Assembly (NCBI GenBank): GCA_018656005.1
Contig: JABHZW010000034.1
Location: forward strand, 2,495-66,494
Length of the DNA: 64,000 bases
Source: Candidatus Pseudelusimicrobium marinum
Lineage (GTDB): Bacteria > Elusimicrobiota > Elusimicrobia > Elusimicrobiales > Elusimicrobiaceae
Direction: 5' to 3'
Position numbers and translations under genes: made by a program. Shown here one piece after another: positions 6,602 to 41,846 of the stretch; the first letter of the stretch is position 1, and every line of letters starts with the position of its first letter. The notes beneath the pieces were generated by a model, which saw nothing but the letters and a program-made list of their open reading frames with translations, did no database searches and was not told the origin of the DNA.

Positions 6602-7645
6602 CTATAAAATTAACATAGCATCGCCAAAGGAATAGAACCGATATTTTTCTTCCACAGCTTGGGTATATGCTTTAAATAAAAAGTCTACATCGCCCAAAAA
6701 TGCCGATGTTAGGCATATTGGGGTGCTGTCTGCTAGGTGGAAGTTTGTGATTAAACAATCTATCACTTTAAATTTGTATGGAGGGTATATAAATAGGTTG
6801 GTGTGTTTGCCACCGCTTAAAACCTCTCCCTTTTTTTCTGGGTTTGCGAAACTTTCTAGTGTTCTTACACAAGTTGTACCTGTTGCAAATAATCTGCCAC
6901 CGTTTTGTTTAGTTTTGTTTATCTGTTTTGCTGTGCTTTCAGATATTACCGCAAACTCTGCCAACATTTCGTGATCTTTTGGAGAGGTTTTAAGCGGTTT
7001 AAAAGTTCCAAAACCAACATGAAGTGTAATTTCTAAAATTTTGACACCTTTATCTTCCAACTTTTTTAAAAGTTCTTTTGTAAAGTGGAAACCAGCTGTT
7101 GGTGCTGCAATAGAACCTGTTTGTTTGGCATAAATTGTTTGATAATCTTCTTTATCTGCATCTATTTTAGTATTTTGTCCGCTAGATTTTCTTGCTTTTT
7201 CTATATAAGGGGGAAGTGGCATAGAACCATAGGTATCGGCGTAACTCAAGATATTTTCTGTATTAAATTTCATTAAAAATTCGTTGTTTTCATTTTTTGA
7301 TAGGAATTTGCCTACAATACCACCTTCAAAAAATATTTCTGTGTTTGGTTTGTATCCTGTGGAAAGAGTTTTCCAAATTGTAGCATCTTCTGTTTGCGAA
7401 ACTAGTAAAACTTCTATTTTGCCACCGCTCTTTTTTTTACCTAAAATTTTTGCAGGAAAAACTTTTGTGTTATTTATAACAAGACAATCGCCACTATTAA
7501 AATATTGCAAAATATCTGCAAAAATTTTAGATTCTATTTGCCCACTTTTCCTATTTAGCACCATTAGTTTGGAGCTATCTCTTGGGCAAGCAGGTTTTTT
7601 TGCTATTAAATTTTCTATTTGTAGTTTTGTGAATTTTTCGAACAT
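6602..7645 (-). CDS. queA: S-adenosylmethionine:tRNA ribosyltransferase-isomerase
   Basis: Full-length QueA-like ORF with motifs GSIAAPTAGFHFT, GFGTFKP and TTCVRTLES. Confidence 0.9.
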   Translation of the reverse strand: MFEKFTKLQIENLIAKKPACPRDSSKLMVLNRKSGQIESKIFADILQYFNSGDCLVINNTKVFPAKILGKKKSGGKIEVLLVSQTEDATIWKTLSTGYKPNTEIFFEGGIVGKFLSKNENNEFLMKFNTENILSYADTYGSMPLPPYIEKARKSSGQNTKIDADKEDYQTIYAKQTGSIAAPTAGFHFTKELLKKLEDKGVKILEITLHVGFGTFKPLKTSPKDHEMLAEFAVISESTAKQINKTKQNGGRLFATGTTCVRTLESFANPEKKGEVLSGGKHTNLFIYPPYKFKVIDCLITNFHLADSTPICLTSAFLGDVDFLFKAYTQAVEEKYRFYSFGDAMLIL

Positions 7646-25669: not shown

Positions 25670-25873
25670 ATGAAAAAGTTTGGAAATTTTATTTTAAAAA
25701 TAATAGTTAGTGTAGTTTTTCTTTTTGCAATTTATATATCTTGGCAAATGTTTTACGATGCTTTCATATTAAAATATGGTAGTGAAATGAGGTTTTACAC
25801 ATTAGCTTTCATGATTATAATTTTAGGTGGAAGTGGATTGTTAACTTACACAGTTTTTAATAAAGATAAATAA
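25670..25873 (+). CDS. small two-TM membrane protein (hypothetical)
   Basis: 67 aa, with GGAGGG 6 nt upstream of the ATG and two hydrophobic helices. Confidence 0.6.
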   Translation: MKKFGNFILKIIVSVVFLFAIYISWQMFYDAFILKYGSEMRFYTLAFMIIILGGSGLLTYTVFNKDK

Positions 25874-25893
25874 ATATAAAGTATAATAAAAAT

Positions 25894-26550
25894 ATGAAAA
25901 ATAAAAAAGGAAATAAAAATTTGTCATTACGAAGAATTTTTTCTTATGTCATTCTCAGCTTGACTGGGAATCTAGTAAAAAATAAGAAAAAATTCTGTGG
26001 TAATCTCGGTTTTACATTAATAGAACTTTTGGTGGTAATACTTATACTAGCAGTACTAGCTAGTATTGCATTACCAAAATATATGGTAGCAAGAGATAGG
26101 GCACACCTTGCTGGTTTAATGACTATTGGTAAAAATGTTAATGATGCTTTGGATAGAATAAGTCTTACTGATGACCAGGCAGATAGCTCAGCTTTAGACA
26201 AATTAGATATAAGTTTTAAGGATTACGAAGGAAGTGATTGTGGTAGCACCTGTAGAATAACAGTTTCAGGTAAAGATTATATGCTTATGCCTGTTCTAAA
26301 TCAGTCTGATGTTCATACTCGGAATTATACTATTTTTTATTCTTATGATAATTCAAATTTTAATAGACTTAATGTCCATACGGAAGAGGGAAAAGTAACT
26401 TGGAATACCACAAATACATATATGCTTTTTTGTTATCAGTATAATGCCTCATATATAGATCCAGATCCAGATAAATGTGAAAGATTAGCAGCAAGTTTTG
26501 GTGCAACTTGTATTGGAGCCACTGGTGCAAGGAGATGTTCTTGGAGCTAA
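25894..26550 (+). CDS. type IV pilin-like protein (prepilin N-terminal cleavage/methylation domain) with a repeat-encoded long leader
   Basis: G|FTLIELLVVILILAVLASIALPKYMVARD, a paralogue of the 41367 gene. The 39-aa leader contains family A repeat DNA in frame. The start is uncertain: ATG 25894, TTG 25921 or TTG 25960. Confidence 0.75.
   Translation: MKNKKGNKNLSLRRIFSYVILSLTGNLVKNKKKFCGNLGFTLIELLVVILILAVLASIALPKYMVARDRAHLAGLMTIGKNVNDALDRISLTDDQADSSALDKLDISFKDYEGSDCGSTCRITVSGKDYMLMPVLNQSDVHTRNYTIFYSYDNSNFNRLNVHTEEGKVTWNTTNTYMLFCYQYNASYIDPDPDKCERLAASFGATCIGATGARRCSWS
25923..26005 (+). repeat. nested family A repeats (one unit inside the loop of another) within the pilin leader
   Basis: The outer unit is GTCATTACG-AAGAATTTTTT...AAAAAATTCT-GTGGTAATC. 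The inner unit is GTCATTCTCAGCTTGACTGGGAATC (25948-25972). Confidence 0.8.
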
Positions 26551-26575
26551 GTAGCTTAATCCATAATTTATTTTT

Positions 26576-34544: not shown

Positions 34545-34677
34545 TTGTCATTGCGAGGGCTGAAAGCCCGTGGCAATCTTAATTTTACAAATTTGTCATT
34601 GCGAGGAGCGATAGCGACGTGGCAATCTTAATTTTATAAATTTGTCATTGCGAGGAGCGATAGCGACGTGGCAATCT
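34545..34677 (+). repeat. three tandem family A units upstream of the GIY-YIG gene
   Basis: Units at 34545-34579, 34593-34628 and 34642-34677 fit TTGTCATTGCGAG-hairpin-CGTGGCAATCT. Units 2 and 3 are identical. The 13-nt spacers are TAATTTTACAAAT and TAATTTTATAAAT. Confidence 0.92.
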
Positions 34678-34688
34678 CGGTGTAAGGT

Positions 34689-34973
34689 ATGAATAAAAAG
34701 TTTTATGTTTATTTTATGACGAACAAAAATAACGAAATCCTATACATAGGAATAACAAATAATTTAGAAAGACGAGTACTAGAACATAGAAACAAATTAA
34801 TAAAAGGTTTTACAGAAAAATATAATTGTACGAAAATAGTACATTACGAAGAGTTTAATTATATAGATAAAGCGATTTTAAGAGAAAAACAAATAAAGAG
34901 TTGGAATAGAAAAAGAAAGAACGATTTGATAAATGAGTATAATTCGAAATGGAATGATTTATATTCAAGCTGA
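34689..34973 (+). CDS. GIY-YIG nuclease-family protein (UPF0213-type, 94 aa)
   Basis: FYVYFMTNKNNEILYIGITNNLERRVLEH fits GIY..YIG..R..E. The gene starts 12 nt after repeat unit 3, and its TGA touches the inverted repeat. Confidence 0.85.
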   Translation: MNKKFYVYFMTNKNNEILYIGITNNLERRVLEHRNKLIKGFTEKYNCTKIVHYEEFNYIDKAILREKQIKSWNRKRKNDLINEYNSKWNDLYSS

Positions 34974-35012
34974 GATTGCCACGAAATTTTTACAAATTTC
35001 TCGCAATGACAA
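34973..35012 (-). repeat. inverted family A unit downstream of the GIY-YIG gene
   Basis: The reverse complement reads TTGTCATTGCGAG-AAATTT-GTAA-AAATTT-CGTGGCAATCT. Degenerate GGCAATGA(CAA) fragments follow at about 35020-35046. Confidence 0.88.
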
Positions 35013-35083: not shown

Positions 35084-36178
35084 ATGGCACTTACATTAAC
35101 AAGTTTACTAAAAACAGTAGTAGAAAATGAAGCAAGCGGTTTGCATATAAGAGGAAACTCTTATTCCTATGTTCGTATTAATACGGCGATAAAAGCTATT
35201 GAAGATAGTTTTTTATCTAACGAACAAGTTAAAAAAATGGCAATGGCTTGTATGGGCGATACGGAAAAAGCAGTTTTTGAAGAAAAAAAATCCGTAGACT
35301 TTTCACTAGATGCTCAAGATTTCGGAAGATTCCGATTTAATGTGTTTTTAAATTCTGGTAAATACTGTATGGCTGTAAGATATATCCCGTATAAAATACC
35401 AAGTTTCGAAGAACTTAATTTGCCAGCAGATACTTTAAAAAAGATAGCAGATAATCAGAGAGGGTTAATACTTGTAACCGGTATGACCGGTAGTGGTAAA
35501 TCCTCTACACTTGCTGCTATGATAGATCATATTAACAGGACAAGAAGAGGGCATATTCTAACAATAGAAGATCCCGTAGAATTTATACATGTGGGCGAAA
35601 AAAGTATCATAAGTCAAATAAACTTAGGTAAAGATACTCCATCTTATAAAGATGCTTTAAGATTTGCAATGAGACAAGATCCAGATGTAATAATGATAGG
35701 CGAGTTAAGAGATACAGAAACAATAGAAGCAGCGATATCTGCTGCGGAAACTGGTCATTTAGTTCTTGCCACAGTTCACACAATTAATGTTGTGCAAACA
35801 ATAGGTAGAATTATAGATGCTTTCCCTATGAACCAACAAGCACAAATACGACTTCAGTTGGCAGATTTGTTAAAAGGTGTAATTTCTCAACGATTATTAC
35901 CAACAAGCAATAATGCTATGATGCCAGCACTAGAAATAATGGTCAATAATGCAAATATTAAGAAATTTATCGCCGACAATAAATTGTTAGAAATAGACAA
36001 AGCAATTGAAGGTGGAGATTATTACGGTATGACAACTTTCGATGATTCTTTGGTAAAACTATACAAAGATGGCAAAGCAAAATTGGATATAATTTTGGAT
36101 TATTCCACCAATTCCGATATGGTTAAACTAAAACTAAAAGGTATCAGAGGCGGAGCAGACGACTGGGAGAACCGATGA
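35084..36178 (+). CDS. pilT: type IV pilus retraction ATPase PilT-family protein
   Basis: Walker A GMTGSGKSST, ILTIEDPVEF, IMIGELRD and GHLVLATVHT. Confidence 0.85.
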   Translation: MALTLTSLLKTVVENEASGLHIRGNSYSYVRINTAIKAIEDSFLSNEQVKKMAMACMGDTEKAVFEEKKSVDFSLDAQDFGRFRFNVFLNSGKYCMAVRYIPYKIPSFEELNLPADTLKKIADNQRGLILVTGMTGSGKSSTLAAMIDHINRTRRGHILTIEDPVEFIHVGEKSIISQINLGKDTPSYKDALRFAMRQDPDVIMIGELRDTETIEAAISAAETGHLVLATVHTINVVQTIGRIIDAFPMNQQAQIRLQLADLLKGVISQRLLPTSNNAMMPALEIMVNNANIKKFIADNKLLEIDKAIEGGDYYGMTTFDDSLVKLYKDGKAKLDIILDYSTNSDMVKLKLKGIRGGADDWENR

Positions 36179-41366: not shown

Positions 41367-41846
41367 ATGAATAAAAAAGCATTTACACTTATAGAACTTC
41401 TAGTTGTGGTACTTATTATAGCTATATTAGCATCTATTGCACTACCAAAGTATATGGTTGCTAAAGAAAAAACGCATGCTGTTAGTGCAATGACAAGATT
41501 AAAATCAGTTGCAGAAGCTTTAGATAGATATAAATTAGCTATAGGGTCTTACCCTTCAACAATATCTAACTGGAGTGCTCTTGATATAGAAATGCCAGAA
41601 GGCTGTTCTGATACTGGCTATTGTACTGGCGATATTTGGCAATGGTATATATATGCTAATAGCGGGAGTGTTCTAGCACACAGAGATCCTAGAACAAAAT
41701 ATTACATTATTTATTCTCAAACAAATAAGTATTTCACATGTTATGTATACGGGGCTGGTTCAAATACTGATTTTTACGAAAAAGTCTGTAAAAGCTTATG
41801 TGGGACAGATTTAACATCTGGTACCAACCCTTATTGTGTTATTTAA
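41367..41846 (+). CDS. type IV pilin-like protein (prepilin N-terminal cleavage/methylation domain)
   Basis: MNKKA|FTLIELLVVVLIIAILASIALPKYMVAKEK, with a Cys-containing C-terminal domain. Confidence 0.85.
   Translation: MNKKAFTLIELLVVVLIIAILASIALPKYMVAKEKTHAVSAMTRLKSVAEALDRYKLAIGSYPSTISNWSALDIEMPEGCSDTGYCTGDIWQWYIYANSGSVLAHRDPRTKYYIIYSQTNKYFTCYVYGAGSNTDFYEKVCKSLCGTDLTSGTNPYCVI

What the first reader, a model, noticed from the sequence alone, without database searches (positions are those of the whole stretch)
25912..26010. Nested hairpin repeats inserted in frame, exactly at the prepilin cleavage junction of a pilin-like gene
The paralogue at 41367 starts MNKKA|FTLIELLVV. This gene starts MKNKKG, then has 33 extra codons (NKNLSLRRIFSYVILSLTGNLVKNKKKFCGNLG), then FTLIELLVV.
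- The extra 99 nt are family A repeat DNA. An outer unit (GTCATTACG-AAGAATTTTTT ... AAAAAATTCT-GTGGTAATC) carries a complete inner unit (GTCATTCTCAGCTTGACTGGGAATC) in its loop.
- It ends with the same AATCTCGGT seen at the end of the GIY-YIG-proximal unit (34672-34680).
- The insertion is a multiple of three, contains no stop codon and regenerates a Gly at position -1 before Phe+1.

This is direct evidence that the units insert, including into each other's loops. It also raises the question of whether the gene still makes a processable prepilin with a 39-aa leader, uses an internal TTG start (25921 or 25960), or is silenced.
Basis: partly seen in the sequence, partly recalled or inferred. Interest (0 to 1): 0.6.

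Follow-up and report, generated by a model that had tools for sequence, protein, structure and literature searches.

The report
Hairpin repeats inside pilin leader peptides
A pilin-like gene of a gut Elusimicrobiaceae bacterium carries a nested DNA hairpin repeat, in frame, in the stretch coding for the leader peptide that is normally cut off, and dozens of sister pilin genes in two genera do the same, so the cleaved leader looks like a tolerated home for these repeats.

Summary
ORF 25894-26550 reads MKNKKG, then 33 extra codons (25912-26010), then G|FTLIELLVV. The extra DNA is an 83-nt family-A hairpin unit (25923-26005) with a 25-nt NTS-like unit (25948-25972) in its loop.

It is not a one-off fresh insertion.
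- Three other paralogues in this genome, and at least three in the same-genus MAG, carry a family-A unit at the same junction (...GGCAATCTCGGK|TTY).
- Other hairpin families sit in other pilin leaders, including minor pseudopilins of the pilus operon.
- A scan of 121 Elusimicrobiaceae genomes found hairpin-plus-G|FTLIE in 26 genomes of two genera. The reversed-pattern control gave 0.

In every repeat-bearing leader that lacks a (CA)n tract, the frame from the promoter-proximal ATG is kept. A TATAAT box 6 nt before the ATG is conserved.

The repeats resemble the Ssn/NTS system (Chenal 2025). A single 94-aa GIY-YIG gene bracketed by family-A units lies at 34689-34973.

No empty-site allele was found. 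Most likely the gene makes a prepilin with a 39-aa, repeat-encoded leader. Processing is untested. I class it as a new variant of known kinds: RPE-like in-frame palindromes and Ssn-related repeats.

The parts
25882..25887 (+). TATAAT (-10-like) box, 6 nt before the ATG. This arrangement is conserved before most pilin paralogues.
   Evidence: sequence. TATAAT-N6-ATG before 14 G000 and 10 G001 paralogues. The codon before TAT varies (M/C/K/W/I), so the box is not conserved as coding sequence. A promoter role and a leaderless mRNA are inferred.
25894..26550 (+). Type IV pilin-like ORF, 218 aa, with a 39-aa predicted leader.
   Evidence: ORF. PF07963 N_methyl and TIGR02532 match residues 39-60. 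The exact protein is on 33 contigs.
25894..25911 (+). Ancestral-type short leader codons MKNKKG.
   Evidence: Compared with paralogue leaders MNKKG/MKNKKA/MRNKKA.
25912..26010 (+). The 99 extra nt (33 codons). They consist of an 11-nt left piece, the 83-nt composite unit and TCGGT.
25923..26005 (+). Outer family-A unit core, GTCATTACGA...GTGGTAATC. It is the A/T variant of GTCATTGCGA...GTGGCAATC.
   Evidence: unit list. Length 83, which is 2 mod 3, like every family-A unit found in a pilin leader.
25933..25947 (+). Left arm of the outer stem (AGAATTTTTTCTTAT).
   Evidence: 15 nt, 100% complementary to 25982-25996.
25982..25996 (+). Right arm of the outer stem (ATAAGAAAAAATTCT).
25948..25972 (+). 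Inner 25-nt NTS-like unit (GTCATTCTCAG-CTTGA-CTGGGAATC) in the outer loop.
   Evidence: About 25 units of this 25-nt size class occur in the genome.
26008..26013 (+). GGT|TTT, the predicted prepilin-peptidase cleavage junction (Gly-1/Phe+1). The Gly codon comes from the unit's CTCGGT tail.
   Evidence: The same tail occurs at C45:39447, C45:77250, C28:6188 and G001 L018/L019/L023.
26011..26547 (+). Predicted mature pilin (179 aa), intact.
   Evidence: It has 28 matches in its own genome. The nearest paralogues, C54:34855 and C54:35432 (64-65% identity), lack the insert.
41367..41846 (+). Paralogue with a plain 5-aa leader, MNKKA|FTLIELLVV.
34547..34676 (+). Three tandem family-A units upstream of the GIY-YIG gene. 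The last one ends AATCTCGGT.
34689..34973 (+). Single-domain 94-aa GIY-YIG (Ssn-like) nuclease gene, the only copy in the genome.
34974..35010 (-). Inverted family-A unit directly after the GIY-YIG gene. The gene is therefore bracketed.

Best explanation
The 99 nt are a composite of two Ssn-related (NTS-like) hairpin repeats. They lie inside the translated, leader-peptide-coding part of a type IV pilin-like gene. This gene is one case of a lineage-wide habit. In two Elusimicrobiaceae genera, many pilin paralogues carry such hairpins between the start codon and the G|F cleavage site.

The leader is a permissive site because prepilin peptidase removes it. Only arrangements that keep the reading frame and a Gly at -1 survive.

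A family-A unit at exactly this junction already existed in the common ancestor of this species and its congener, or it spread among paralogues by exchange of 5' ends. The long AT-rich stem and the inner unit are later, gene-specific changes.

The gene is most likely translated from ATG 25894, on a leaderless or near-leaderless mRNA, into a prepilin with a 39-aa leader that is cut at G39|F40.

Shown: the anatomy, the recurrence, frame conservation, the presence of a prepilin peptidase gene, and the link of family A to the GIY-YIG gene.
Inferred: the start site, translation through the hairpin, processing, and the way the units spread.
For: 1. Recurrence at the same junction.
- C45:39447 reads MNKKAFKNLSLRGTKCRGNLG|FTLIE.
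- C45:77250 reads MNKKGFDSLSLRGTKCRGNLG|FTIME.
- C28:6188 has a nested unit and a 55-aa leader.
- G001 L018, L019 and L023 have the same junction.

2. Other hairpin families sit in other leaders: C30:28205 and two minor pseudopilins of the pilus operon on C17. G001 leaders reach 108 aa.

3. Family scan. 26 of 121 genomes have hairpin-plus-G|FTLIE: own genus 2/2, genus g2 24/72, and none of the 47 genomes searched in the other eight genera. There are up to 12 genes per genome. The reversed-pattern control gave 0.

4. Frame.
- All 11 repeat-bearing leaders without a (CA)n tract are in frame with the promoter-proximal ATG.
- Family-A cores in leaders are all 2 mod 3 (32, 32, 83, 95; G001 32, 50, 50). 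Only 13 of 38 units elsewhere are.
- In about 50 g2 loci the frame is open from G|F back through the hairpin, although 1-2 of the 3 frames of those units contain stops.
- Eight G043 paralogues share a 38-45-codon leader at 81% nt identity, with one indel. That indel lies before the second ATG.

5. TATAAT-N6-ATG is conserved before the paralogues.

6. After the inner unit's loop (TTG 25960) no in-frame ATG, GTG or TTG precedes Gly-1, and only 5 nt separate the outer unit's core from Phe+1.

7. A peptidase A24 gene lies at C54:21503-21844.

8. The mature ORF is intact, and the protein is identical on 33 contigs.

9. Leader type is scattered on the tree of mature domains: 7 changes for 7 rows, with at least 3 forced by well-supported branches.
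Against:
- A 39-aa leader exceeds the 6-26/30 aa reported for class III signal peptides (PMC4471445). It also contains a 14-residue semi-hydrophobic stretch (IFSYVILSLTGNLV). Cleavage is therefore not assured.
- The promoter scan did not call a -35/-10 pair at 25882. The leaderless reading rests on conservation only.
- Frame conservation among paralogues is partly inherited, so the counts are not independent events.
- Hairpin pairing is conserved by compensatory changes inside coding leaders. In G043 the leader DNA is more conserved than the first 150 nt of the mature part, 81% against 61%. Both hint at a nucleic-acid-level function rather than mere tolerance.
Confidence: 0.6

Rival explanations
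1. The hairpins are kept at the 5' end of pilin genes because they do something at the DNA level with the Ssn-type ssDNA nuclease. They might limit or start recombination of pilin paralogues or of incoming DNA, as NTS repeats do around surface-protein genes in Neisseria. Being translated would then be a side effect.
For: - The units are of the type that brackets the only GIY-YIG/Ssn-like gene.
- NTS repeats cluster next to host-interaction membrane-protein genes and modulate transformation (PMC11893778).
- Hairpin pairing is maintained by compensatory changes within coding leaders.
- Leader DNA is more conserved than the adjacent mature coding DNA in G043.
- Leader types are scattered relative to the mature-domain tree.
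- Ssn homologues occur in 17 of 24 g2 genomes with leader hairpins, against 16 of 48 without.
- Chimeric N/C pilin contigs occur in metagenomes, including both reciprocal C28a/C28b products.
Against: - The genomes with the most leader hairpins (G016, G043, G061, G097) show no Ssn homologue at E<=1e-5.
- The chimeras are all on short contigs. The two with a stated coverage (L038, L105) are at 2-3x. All join flanks of different loci, as misassembly would.
- There is no functional data for any Elusimicrobia Ssn.
- Related genomes are not independent, so the association is weak.
Confidence: 0.17
2. Translation starts inside the repeat, at TTG 25921 or TTG 25960. The upstream ATG and the hairpin would then act as a 5' untranslated regulatory structure, and the leader would be 30 or 17 aa.
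For: - Both TTG codons are in frame.
- A start at TTG 25960 gives MTGNLVKNKKKFCGNLG|F, a normal-looking basic leader.
- A gene caller chose that start on one short contig (P0044).
- Every family-A unit in this frame supplies TTG codons.
Against: - Neither TTG has a Shine-Dalgarno-like sequence before it.
- TTG 25960 sits in the loop of the inner hairpin, inside a -26 kcal/mol structure.
- This reading does not explain why the distance to the upstream ATG is a multiple of three in 11 of 11 comparable leaders.
- It does not explain why the unit is read in an open frame in about 50 other loci.
- In many g2 leaders no start codon of any kind lies between the hairpin and Gly-1.
Confidence: 0.1
3. 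This is a recent, gene-specific insertion of a ready-made composite unit into an empty MKNKKG|FTLIE site.
For: - The nearest paralogues (C54:34855 and C54:35432) have plain MRNKKA|FTLIE leaders.
- Composite nested units do exist in several copies elsewhere.
- Flanking direct repeats GGTTTTA occur around the unit in G001 L019 and L023.
Against: - The left piece and the junction are homologous, position by position, to those of other paralogues and of the congener. GGAAATAAAAATTT here matches GGTTTTAACAATTT there, with 4 substitutions and no gaps.
- No second copy of this composite exists in the genome.
- No empty allele is present in a 15-billion-protein collection.
Confidence: 0.08
4. The gene is silenced: a decaying paralogue whose start region was wrecked by repeat DNA.
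For: The leader is longer than any characterised one (PMC4471445). The family is large (about 28 paralogues), so losing one copy would cost little.
Against: - The 218-codon frame is intact in a 33% GC genome.
- The frame is kept across the 99 nt.
- The promoter-like box, the ATG, Gly-1, Phe+1 and Glu+5 are all intact.
- The protein is identical on 33 contigs.
- The same architecture is present in many genes, including pilus-operon pseudopilins.
Confidence: 0.05

Closest known systems
Ssn nucleases with NTS/SRM hairpin repeats (Chenal et al., Nat Commun 2025, PMC11893778; dRS3/NTS of Neisseria)
   Same: - Short oriented hairpin repeats with a conserved GTCAT(T) 5' box and a (G)GAATC 3' box. The NTS consensus is CGTCATTCCCGCGMAVGCGGGAATCYRG.
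- The stem and loop vary.
- There are dozens of copies per genome.
- A single-domain GIY-YIG gene of about 94 aa is bracketed by its own repeats.
- The repeats cluster next to surface-protein genes.
   Different: [quoted passage not shown] Here they are inside the coding leader of many pilin genes and are kept in frame.
- Family A has an internal loop (GCGA/GTGG) and does not match the published degenerate SRM search string.
- No cleavage data exist for this enzyme.
Rickettsia palindromic elements (RPEs), reviewed in PMC10969869
   Same: Palindromic repeats inserted in frame into protein-coding genes. They add a peptide segment without destroying the protein.
   Different: - RPEs are about 100-150 bp, belong to other sequence families, and land in unrelated metabolic genes at surface-exposed positions of the mature protein.
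- Here the units are 25-95 nt and concentrate in one gene family.
- They occupy a segment that is predicted to be cleaved off.
REP/BIME elements with RAYT transposases; MITEs
   Same: Short hairpin-forming repeats that form clusters and nested or mosaic arrays and are associated with one nuclease gene. A possible short flanking direct repeat (GGTTTTA) occurs in two G001 copies.
   Different: - REPs are extragenic by definition.
- The associated enzyme is a HUH/Y1 transposase, not a GIY-YIG nuclease.
- The units have no terminal inverted repeats of the MITE type and no consistent target-site duplication.
Class III (prepilin) signal peptides, including long-leader type IVb pilins (PMC4471445)
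   Same: A basic hydrophilic leader ends in Gly. It is followed by Phe+1, Glu+5 and about 21 hydrophobic residues. A dedicated A24 peptidase gene is present.
   Different: Described leaders are 6-26 aa, or up to about 30 aa in type IVb. Here they are 21, 39 and 55 aa, and up to 108 aa in the congener, and they are built from repeat DNA.
Phase-variable contingency genes with simple-sequence repeats in the 5' coding region (Neisseria, Haemophilus, Campylobacter)
   Same: Some sister pilin genes carry (CA)5-9 just after the start codon. Most of those are one repeat unit out of frame.
   Different: The window gene has no such tract. No length polymorphism was seen in the few contigs available.

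Membership tests
Type IV pilin / class III signal peptide | Gly at -1, Phe (methylatable) at +1, Glu at +5, and about 20 hydrophobic residues after the cleavage site | tested here: met
   G39|FTLIELLVVILILAVLASIALP. PF07963 scores 27.7 bits against a cut-off of 21.2. TIGR02532 scores 30.5 bits against 16.3, over residues 39-60.
Type IV pilin / class III signal peptide | Short hydrophilic leader (6-26 aa; up to about 30 in type IVb) | tested here: not met
   The leader from ATG 25894 is 39 aa and contains IFSYVILSLTGNLV. The known range is taken from PMC4471445.
Type IV pilin / class III signal peptide | Dedicated prepilin peptidase (A24) encoded in the genome | tested here: met
   PF01478 scores 83.1 bits at G000:C54:21503-21844.
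Type IV pilin / class III signal peptide | The leader is actually removed and the N-terminus methylated | not testable with these tools
   Needs protein chemistry.
Ssn-related motif (NTS/SRM) repeats | Inverted repeat of 20-50 nt forming a hairpin, with an oriented conserved 5' flank, in many copies | tested here: met
   42 family-A units and about 25 units of 25 nt share TTTGTCATT...AATCTC. The fold has z = -4.4.
Ssn-related motif (NTS/SRM) repeats | The repeats flank a single-domain GIY-YIG (cd10448-type) gene on both sides | tested here: met
   The 94-aa PF01541 protein at 34689-34973 has three units upstream and one inverted unit at 34974-35010. Assignment to cd10448 itself was not tested.
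Ssn-related motif (NTS/SRM) repeats | Match to the published degenerate SRM search string HGTCWYN(0-2)YYVSBRHN(0-5)WNVSBRGN(0-2)RNCYNB | tested here: not met
   There are only 2 hits in the genome, the same as in shuffles. Neither family A nor the inner unit matches.
Ssn-related motif (NTS/SRM) repeats | ssDNA carrying the unit is cut by the cognate Ssn nuclease | not testable with these tools
   Needs a biochemical assay.
Rickettsia palindromic elements | Palindromic element inserted in frame into a protein-coding gene | tested here: met
   99 nt, in frame, no stop.
Rickettsia palindromic elements | Sequence homology to an RPE family; about 100-150 bp; a conserved encoded peptide retained in the mature protein | not tested
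   No RPE sequences were compared. The size (25-95 nt) and the position in a cleavable leader differ, so this is an analogy only.
MITE | Terminal inverted repeats plus a target-site duplication | tested here: inconclusive
   GGTTTTA flanks the unit in G001 L019 and L023, and a 'GFT' remnant precedes many units. In the window gene the left copy is degenerate (GGAAAT), and intergenic units show only TTT...TC flanks.
Simple-sequence-repeat phase-variable gene | A mutable repeat tract within the 5' coding region that sets the frame | tested here: not met
   There is no (CA)n tract or long homopolymer in 25894-26010. Such tracts exist in paralogues only.

The most novel reading that the evidence does not exclude
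The pilin multigene family of these gut Elusimicrobiaceae may be run as a variation system. In it, Ssn-type hairpins in the leader-coding DNA mark or initiate exchange of 5' expression modules among paralogues, and the (CA)n tracts in the same leaders switch individual genes on and off. This would be a counterpart, in another phylum, of the pilin and opacity-protein variation of Neisseria, with the repeat DNA read through as a disposable leader peptide.
Probability: 0.12. Interest if true: 0.8.

Novelty: new variant of a known kind. Interest (0 to 1): 0.55.

Why it matters
- It gives a clean natural example of where selfish or semi-domesticated hairpin repeats can live inside genes of a compact 1.2-Mb genome: a peptide segment that the cell throws away.
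- It predicts prepilins with leaders of 39 to over 100 residues, well beyond the known range. That is a direct test of how tolerant prepilin peptidases are.
- It places Ssn-related repeats, described as almost always intergenic, inside the coding region of a large surface-protein family. It also ties them to (CA)n tracts and possible paralogue recombination.
- It therefore offers a tractable place to ask what Ssn systems do outside Neisseria.
- For annotation, it warns that start-codon calls for these pilin genes, and hypothetical peptides such as LSLRG..RGNL or CHPELVSGS, are repeat-derived.

Tried and rejected
- **Empty-site allele.** I searched the 5.8-billion-cluster protein set and the cluster members and found none. 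The shorter members (P0035, P0036, P0037) are N/C chimeras on short contigs whose flanks come from other loci.
- **Orthologue by synteny.** The congener has OMP, a 69-aa gene and ribF, but no pilin gene between them.
- **Orthologue of the operon pseudopilin in G001**, as a cleaner empty-site test. No match; the assembly is fragmented.
- **Published SRM regex.** It does not match these units.
- **Whole-collection scan for the family-A/G|FTLIE junction.** Apart from the window's own genome, which this scan leaves out, only the congener has it.
- **(CA)n length polymorphism.** The metagenome scan gave one contig. The contigs fetched by protein all have the same tract lengths. This is uninformative because they are consensus assemblies.
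- **Promoter/terminator scan.** It found no terminator in the unit and did not call the TATAAT at 25882, for lack of a -35.
- **Rfam.** Only a chance miRNA hit, 23.9 bits against 119 gathering bits.
- **The look-up of encoding contigs for the exact window protein** returned nothing, because own-genome records are withheld.
- **Single-origin hypothesis for family-A-bearing paralogues.** The tree is poorly resolved, but its supported branches force at least 3 changes.
Full report
**1.

In the window, ORF 25894-26550 (+) reads MKNKKG, then 33 codons, then GFTLIELLVV.... The paralogue at 41367 reads MNKKA|FTLIELLVV. Pfam N_methyl and TIGR02532 match residues 39-60, so the class III signal motif starts 38 residues into the ORF.

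The extra 99 nt (25912-26010) break down as follows:
- An 11-nt A/T piece.
- An 83-nt unit, GTCATTACGA...GTGGTAATC (25923-26005).
- TCGGT.

The unit has perfect 15-nt arms (25933-47 and 25982-96). Its loop holds a complete 25-nt unit, GTCATTCTCAGCTTGACTGGGAATC (25948-72). The fold is -26.1 kcal/mol, z = -4.4.

**2. What the repeats are**

The genome (G000) is 1.2 Mb, 62 contigs, 32.7% GC. It holds 42 complete units of 'family A'. Their plan is TTT-GTCATTGCGA(GG), a variable palindromic stem, (C)GTGGCAATC-TC(A). The boundaries are defined by conservation profiles. About 25 simpler 25-nt units share the same GTCATT...AATC ends. Nested composites are common, and some composites are themselves multi-copy.

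The only GIY-YIG gene of the genome (94 aa, PF01541; window 34689-34973) has three family-A units upstream and one inverted unit directly downstream. I read that paper (PMC11893778). Its main points are:
- Ssn enzymes are small single-domain GIY-YIG ssDNA nucleases flanked by their own hairpin repeats (NTS/SRM).
- The Neisseria NTS consensus is CGTCATTCCCGCGMAVGCGGGAATCYRG, which shares its end boxes with the units here.
- NTS repeats cluster beside host-interaction membrane-protein genes.
- They are rarely inside genes (2%).

The published degenerate SRM string does not match my units. I therefore call them Ssn-related by architecture, not by that test.

**3. The window gene is not a one-off**

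Translating upstream of every G|F[TS]L.E motif in the genome gave these further cases:

| Locus | Leader | Repeat |
|---|---|---|
| C45:39447-39980(-) | MNKKAFKNLSLRGTKCRGNLG\|FTLIE | family A, same junction (...GGCAATCTCGGK\|TTY ACA) |
| C45:77250-77792(-) | MNKKGFDSLSLRGTKCRGNLG\|FTIME | family A, same junction |
| C28:6188-6730(-) | 55 aa | nested family A, same junction |
| C30:28205 | MKNLFNNKKMCHAELVSASFSKTLKQVQGDKSIKG\|F | another hairpin family |
| C17 pilus operon, two minor pseudopilins | MKNKNQNICHLKQNKCHPEQNICHPEQNKCHPELVSGSYRKIADQARNDKRCSG\|FTIVE and MKKLNKNKKICHTELVSVSNKKG\|FTLIE | other hairpin families |

The same-genus MAG is G001, an 'uncultured Elusimicrobiaceae bacterium'. 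Most of the paralogues I fetched from it have repeat-built leaders:
- MKNKKGFNNLSLRGAKRRGNLG|F (L019).
- MMNKKGFNNLSLRGAGGVEALDRRGNLG|F (L023).
- Mosaics of up to 108 codons (L024).

The window's left piece, GGAAATAAAAATTT, aligns without gaps to L019's GGTTTTAACAATTT, with 4 substitutions. The architecture MKNKKG-x-x-N-LSLR...GNLG|F is therefore shared between species.

A scan of one genome for each of 185,579 species for the family-A/G|FTLIE junction found only G001. The window's own genome is left out of that scan.

A looser pattern (GTCAT-hairpin-RATC, 0-30 nt, GGN TTY ACN YTN ATH GA) gave the following over 121 Elusimicrobiaceae genomes:
- It hit 26 genomes.
- Own genus 2/2, genus g2 24/72, and none of the 47 genomes searched in the other eight genera.
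- Up to 12 genes per genome.
- The reversed-pattern control gave 0 hits.

**4. Is the leader translated?**

*The start region.* A TATAAT box sits 6 nt before the ATG in 14 G000 and 10 G001 paralogues, including the window gene (25882-87). The codon before TAT varies (M, C, K, W, I), so the box is conserved as DNA, not as protein. This is the spacing of a leaderless mRNA, which I infer. The simple promoter scan did not call it, for lack of a -35.

*The frame.*
- Every repeat-bearing leader without a (CA)n tract is in frame with that ATG. These are the window gene, C45a, C45b, C30, the two C17 genes, and L016, L019, L021, L023, L029 (L032 is also in frame, but it contains Ns).
- Family-A cores in pilin leaders are all 2 mod 3, as the frame requires. 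Of 38 units elsewhere, 20, 5 and 13 are 0, 1 and 2 mod 3.
- In about 50 loci from genus g2 the frame is open from G|F back through the hairpin. This holds although one frame of the CHPELVSGS-type unit, and two frames of the VILRSCNSES-type unit, contain stops.
- Eight G043 paralogues keep a leader of the same length at 81% nt identity. The single 1-nt indel lies upstream of the second ATG.

*Start codons in the window gene.* After the inner unit's loop (TTG 25960) there is no in-frame ATG, GTG or TTG before Gly-1, and only 5 nt separate the outer unit's core from Phe+1. The only alternative starts are TTG 25921 and TTG 25960. Neither has a Shine-Dalgarno sequence, and the second lies in the inner loop.

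*Other points.* A prepilin peptidase gene is present. The mature ORF is intact, and the protein is identical on 33 contigs.

Together these favour a prepilin with a 39-aa leader. Reported leaders are 6-26 aa, or up to about 30 aa (PMC4471445). Processing is therefore a prediction, not a given.

**5. Insertion history**

No empty-site allele exists in the protein collection. The shorter cluster members are chimeras of one paralogue's N-terminus with the window gene's C-terminus. They lie on short contigs, and two of them (L038, L105) have stated coverage of 2-3x. Their flanks belong to other loci.

The syntenic site in G001 has no pilin gene. On a tree of mature domains the family-A-bearing genes are scattered: 7 changes for 7 rows, with at least 3 forced. 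The window gene's nearest relatives, C54:34855 and C54:35432, have plain leaders.

So one of two things happened. Either the same site was hit repeatedly, or 5' modules move between paralogues.

Many leaders keep a 'G-F-T' remnant before the unit. Examples are MKGFTLC-CHPELVSGS-NKTG|FTLIE, and L092, where the remnant is doubled. In L019 and L023 GGTTTTA flanks the unit on both sides. This looks like a target duplication that regenerates the cleavage site, but intergenic units show no such duplication. I leave the mechanism open.

**6. Hints of more than tolerance**

- Within coding leaders of genus g2 the hairpin is kept by compensatory changes. Across 27 sequences, 98.6% of cells pair, 17 cells show changes on both sides, and 0 of 500 shuffles reach this. 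Slid controls pair at 15-40%.
- The G043 leader DNA is more conserved than the first 150 nt of the mature part, 81% against 61%.
- Ssn homologues are commoner in g2 genomes with leader hairpins (17/24) than in those without (16/48). The four genomes richest in leader hairpins have none, and related genomes are not independent.

**7. Verdict**

The 'fresh insertion' reading is only partly supported.

The best explanation is a tolerated, frame-selected residence of Ssn-related hairpin repeats in a cleavable prepilin leader, shared by many paralogues in two genera. The window gene carries an additional nested unit.

I class it as a new variant of known kinds (RPE-like in-frame palindromes; Ssn/NTS repeats). 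The main open question is whether the hairpins also serve recombination or expression switching of the pilin family.

Noticed in passing
G000:C28:45089-45104 (+) and G000:C28 around 6855-6868 (- strand), outside the window; G001 loci L014, L015, L018, L024, L026, L031: (CA)7-8 tracts lie about 25 nt after the start codon of two pilin paralogues. They are the only (CA)n>=7 tracts in the whole 1.2-Mb genome. In the two genomes together, 2 such leaders are in frame and 6 are out of frame. All 6 are out by the same amount, so one CA unit fewer would restore the frame. This looks like phase variation, but no length variants were seen in the few contigs available.
   Followed up: partly
Loci L038, L105, L106, L107; proteins P0035-P0037, P0042, P0044, P0046, P0058: Metagenome contigs encode pilins that join the N-terminal part of one paralogue to the C-terminal part of another. 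They include both reciprocal products of the inverted pair C28:6188 and C28:45229. P0058 occurs in two samples. The contigs are short (two are at 2-3x coverage) and join flanks of different loci, so this could be misassembly or real recombination or inversion.
   Followed up: partly
G000:C17:19813-21062 (- strand): Two minor pseudopilin genes inside the pilus or type II secretion operon (after a PilC/GspF-like gene and three GspG-like genes) also have hairpin-repeat-encoded leaders, in frame.
   Followed up: partly
G000:C28:45229 upstream; G001 L015 and L031: Units in reverse orientation end in ...CAATGACAAA. In three pilin genes the ATG inside that end is the in-frame start of a short leader (MTNNFKG|F, MTNNLG|F). 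The repeats can therefore donate start codons.
   Followed up: no
Loci L054, L065-L071 (genome G043, genus g2): Among eight pilin paralogues the 135 nt before the cleavage site are 81% identical, while the first 150 nt of the mature coding part are only 61% identical. The leader DNA is thus the best-conserved part of these genes.
   Followed up: partly
window 35084-36178: A PilT-like retraction ATPase gene starts 74 nt after the inverted repeat that closes the GIY-YIG cassette. The Ssn-like gene therefore sits next to pilus machinery.
   Followed up: no
window 25670-26575 compared with L033:1070-1498: The whole pilin gene is absent from the syntenic spot (between the 67/69-aa membrane protein gene and ribF) in the congener. 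That spot instead has about 220 nt of other repeat DNA. The pilin paralogues are therefore not positionally conserved between species.
   Followed up: yes
G001 loci L017, L020, L025, L028: Several contigs of the congener end inside pilin leader repeats. Assemblies of this genus break there, and leader lengths may be under-reported.
   Followed up: no
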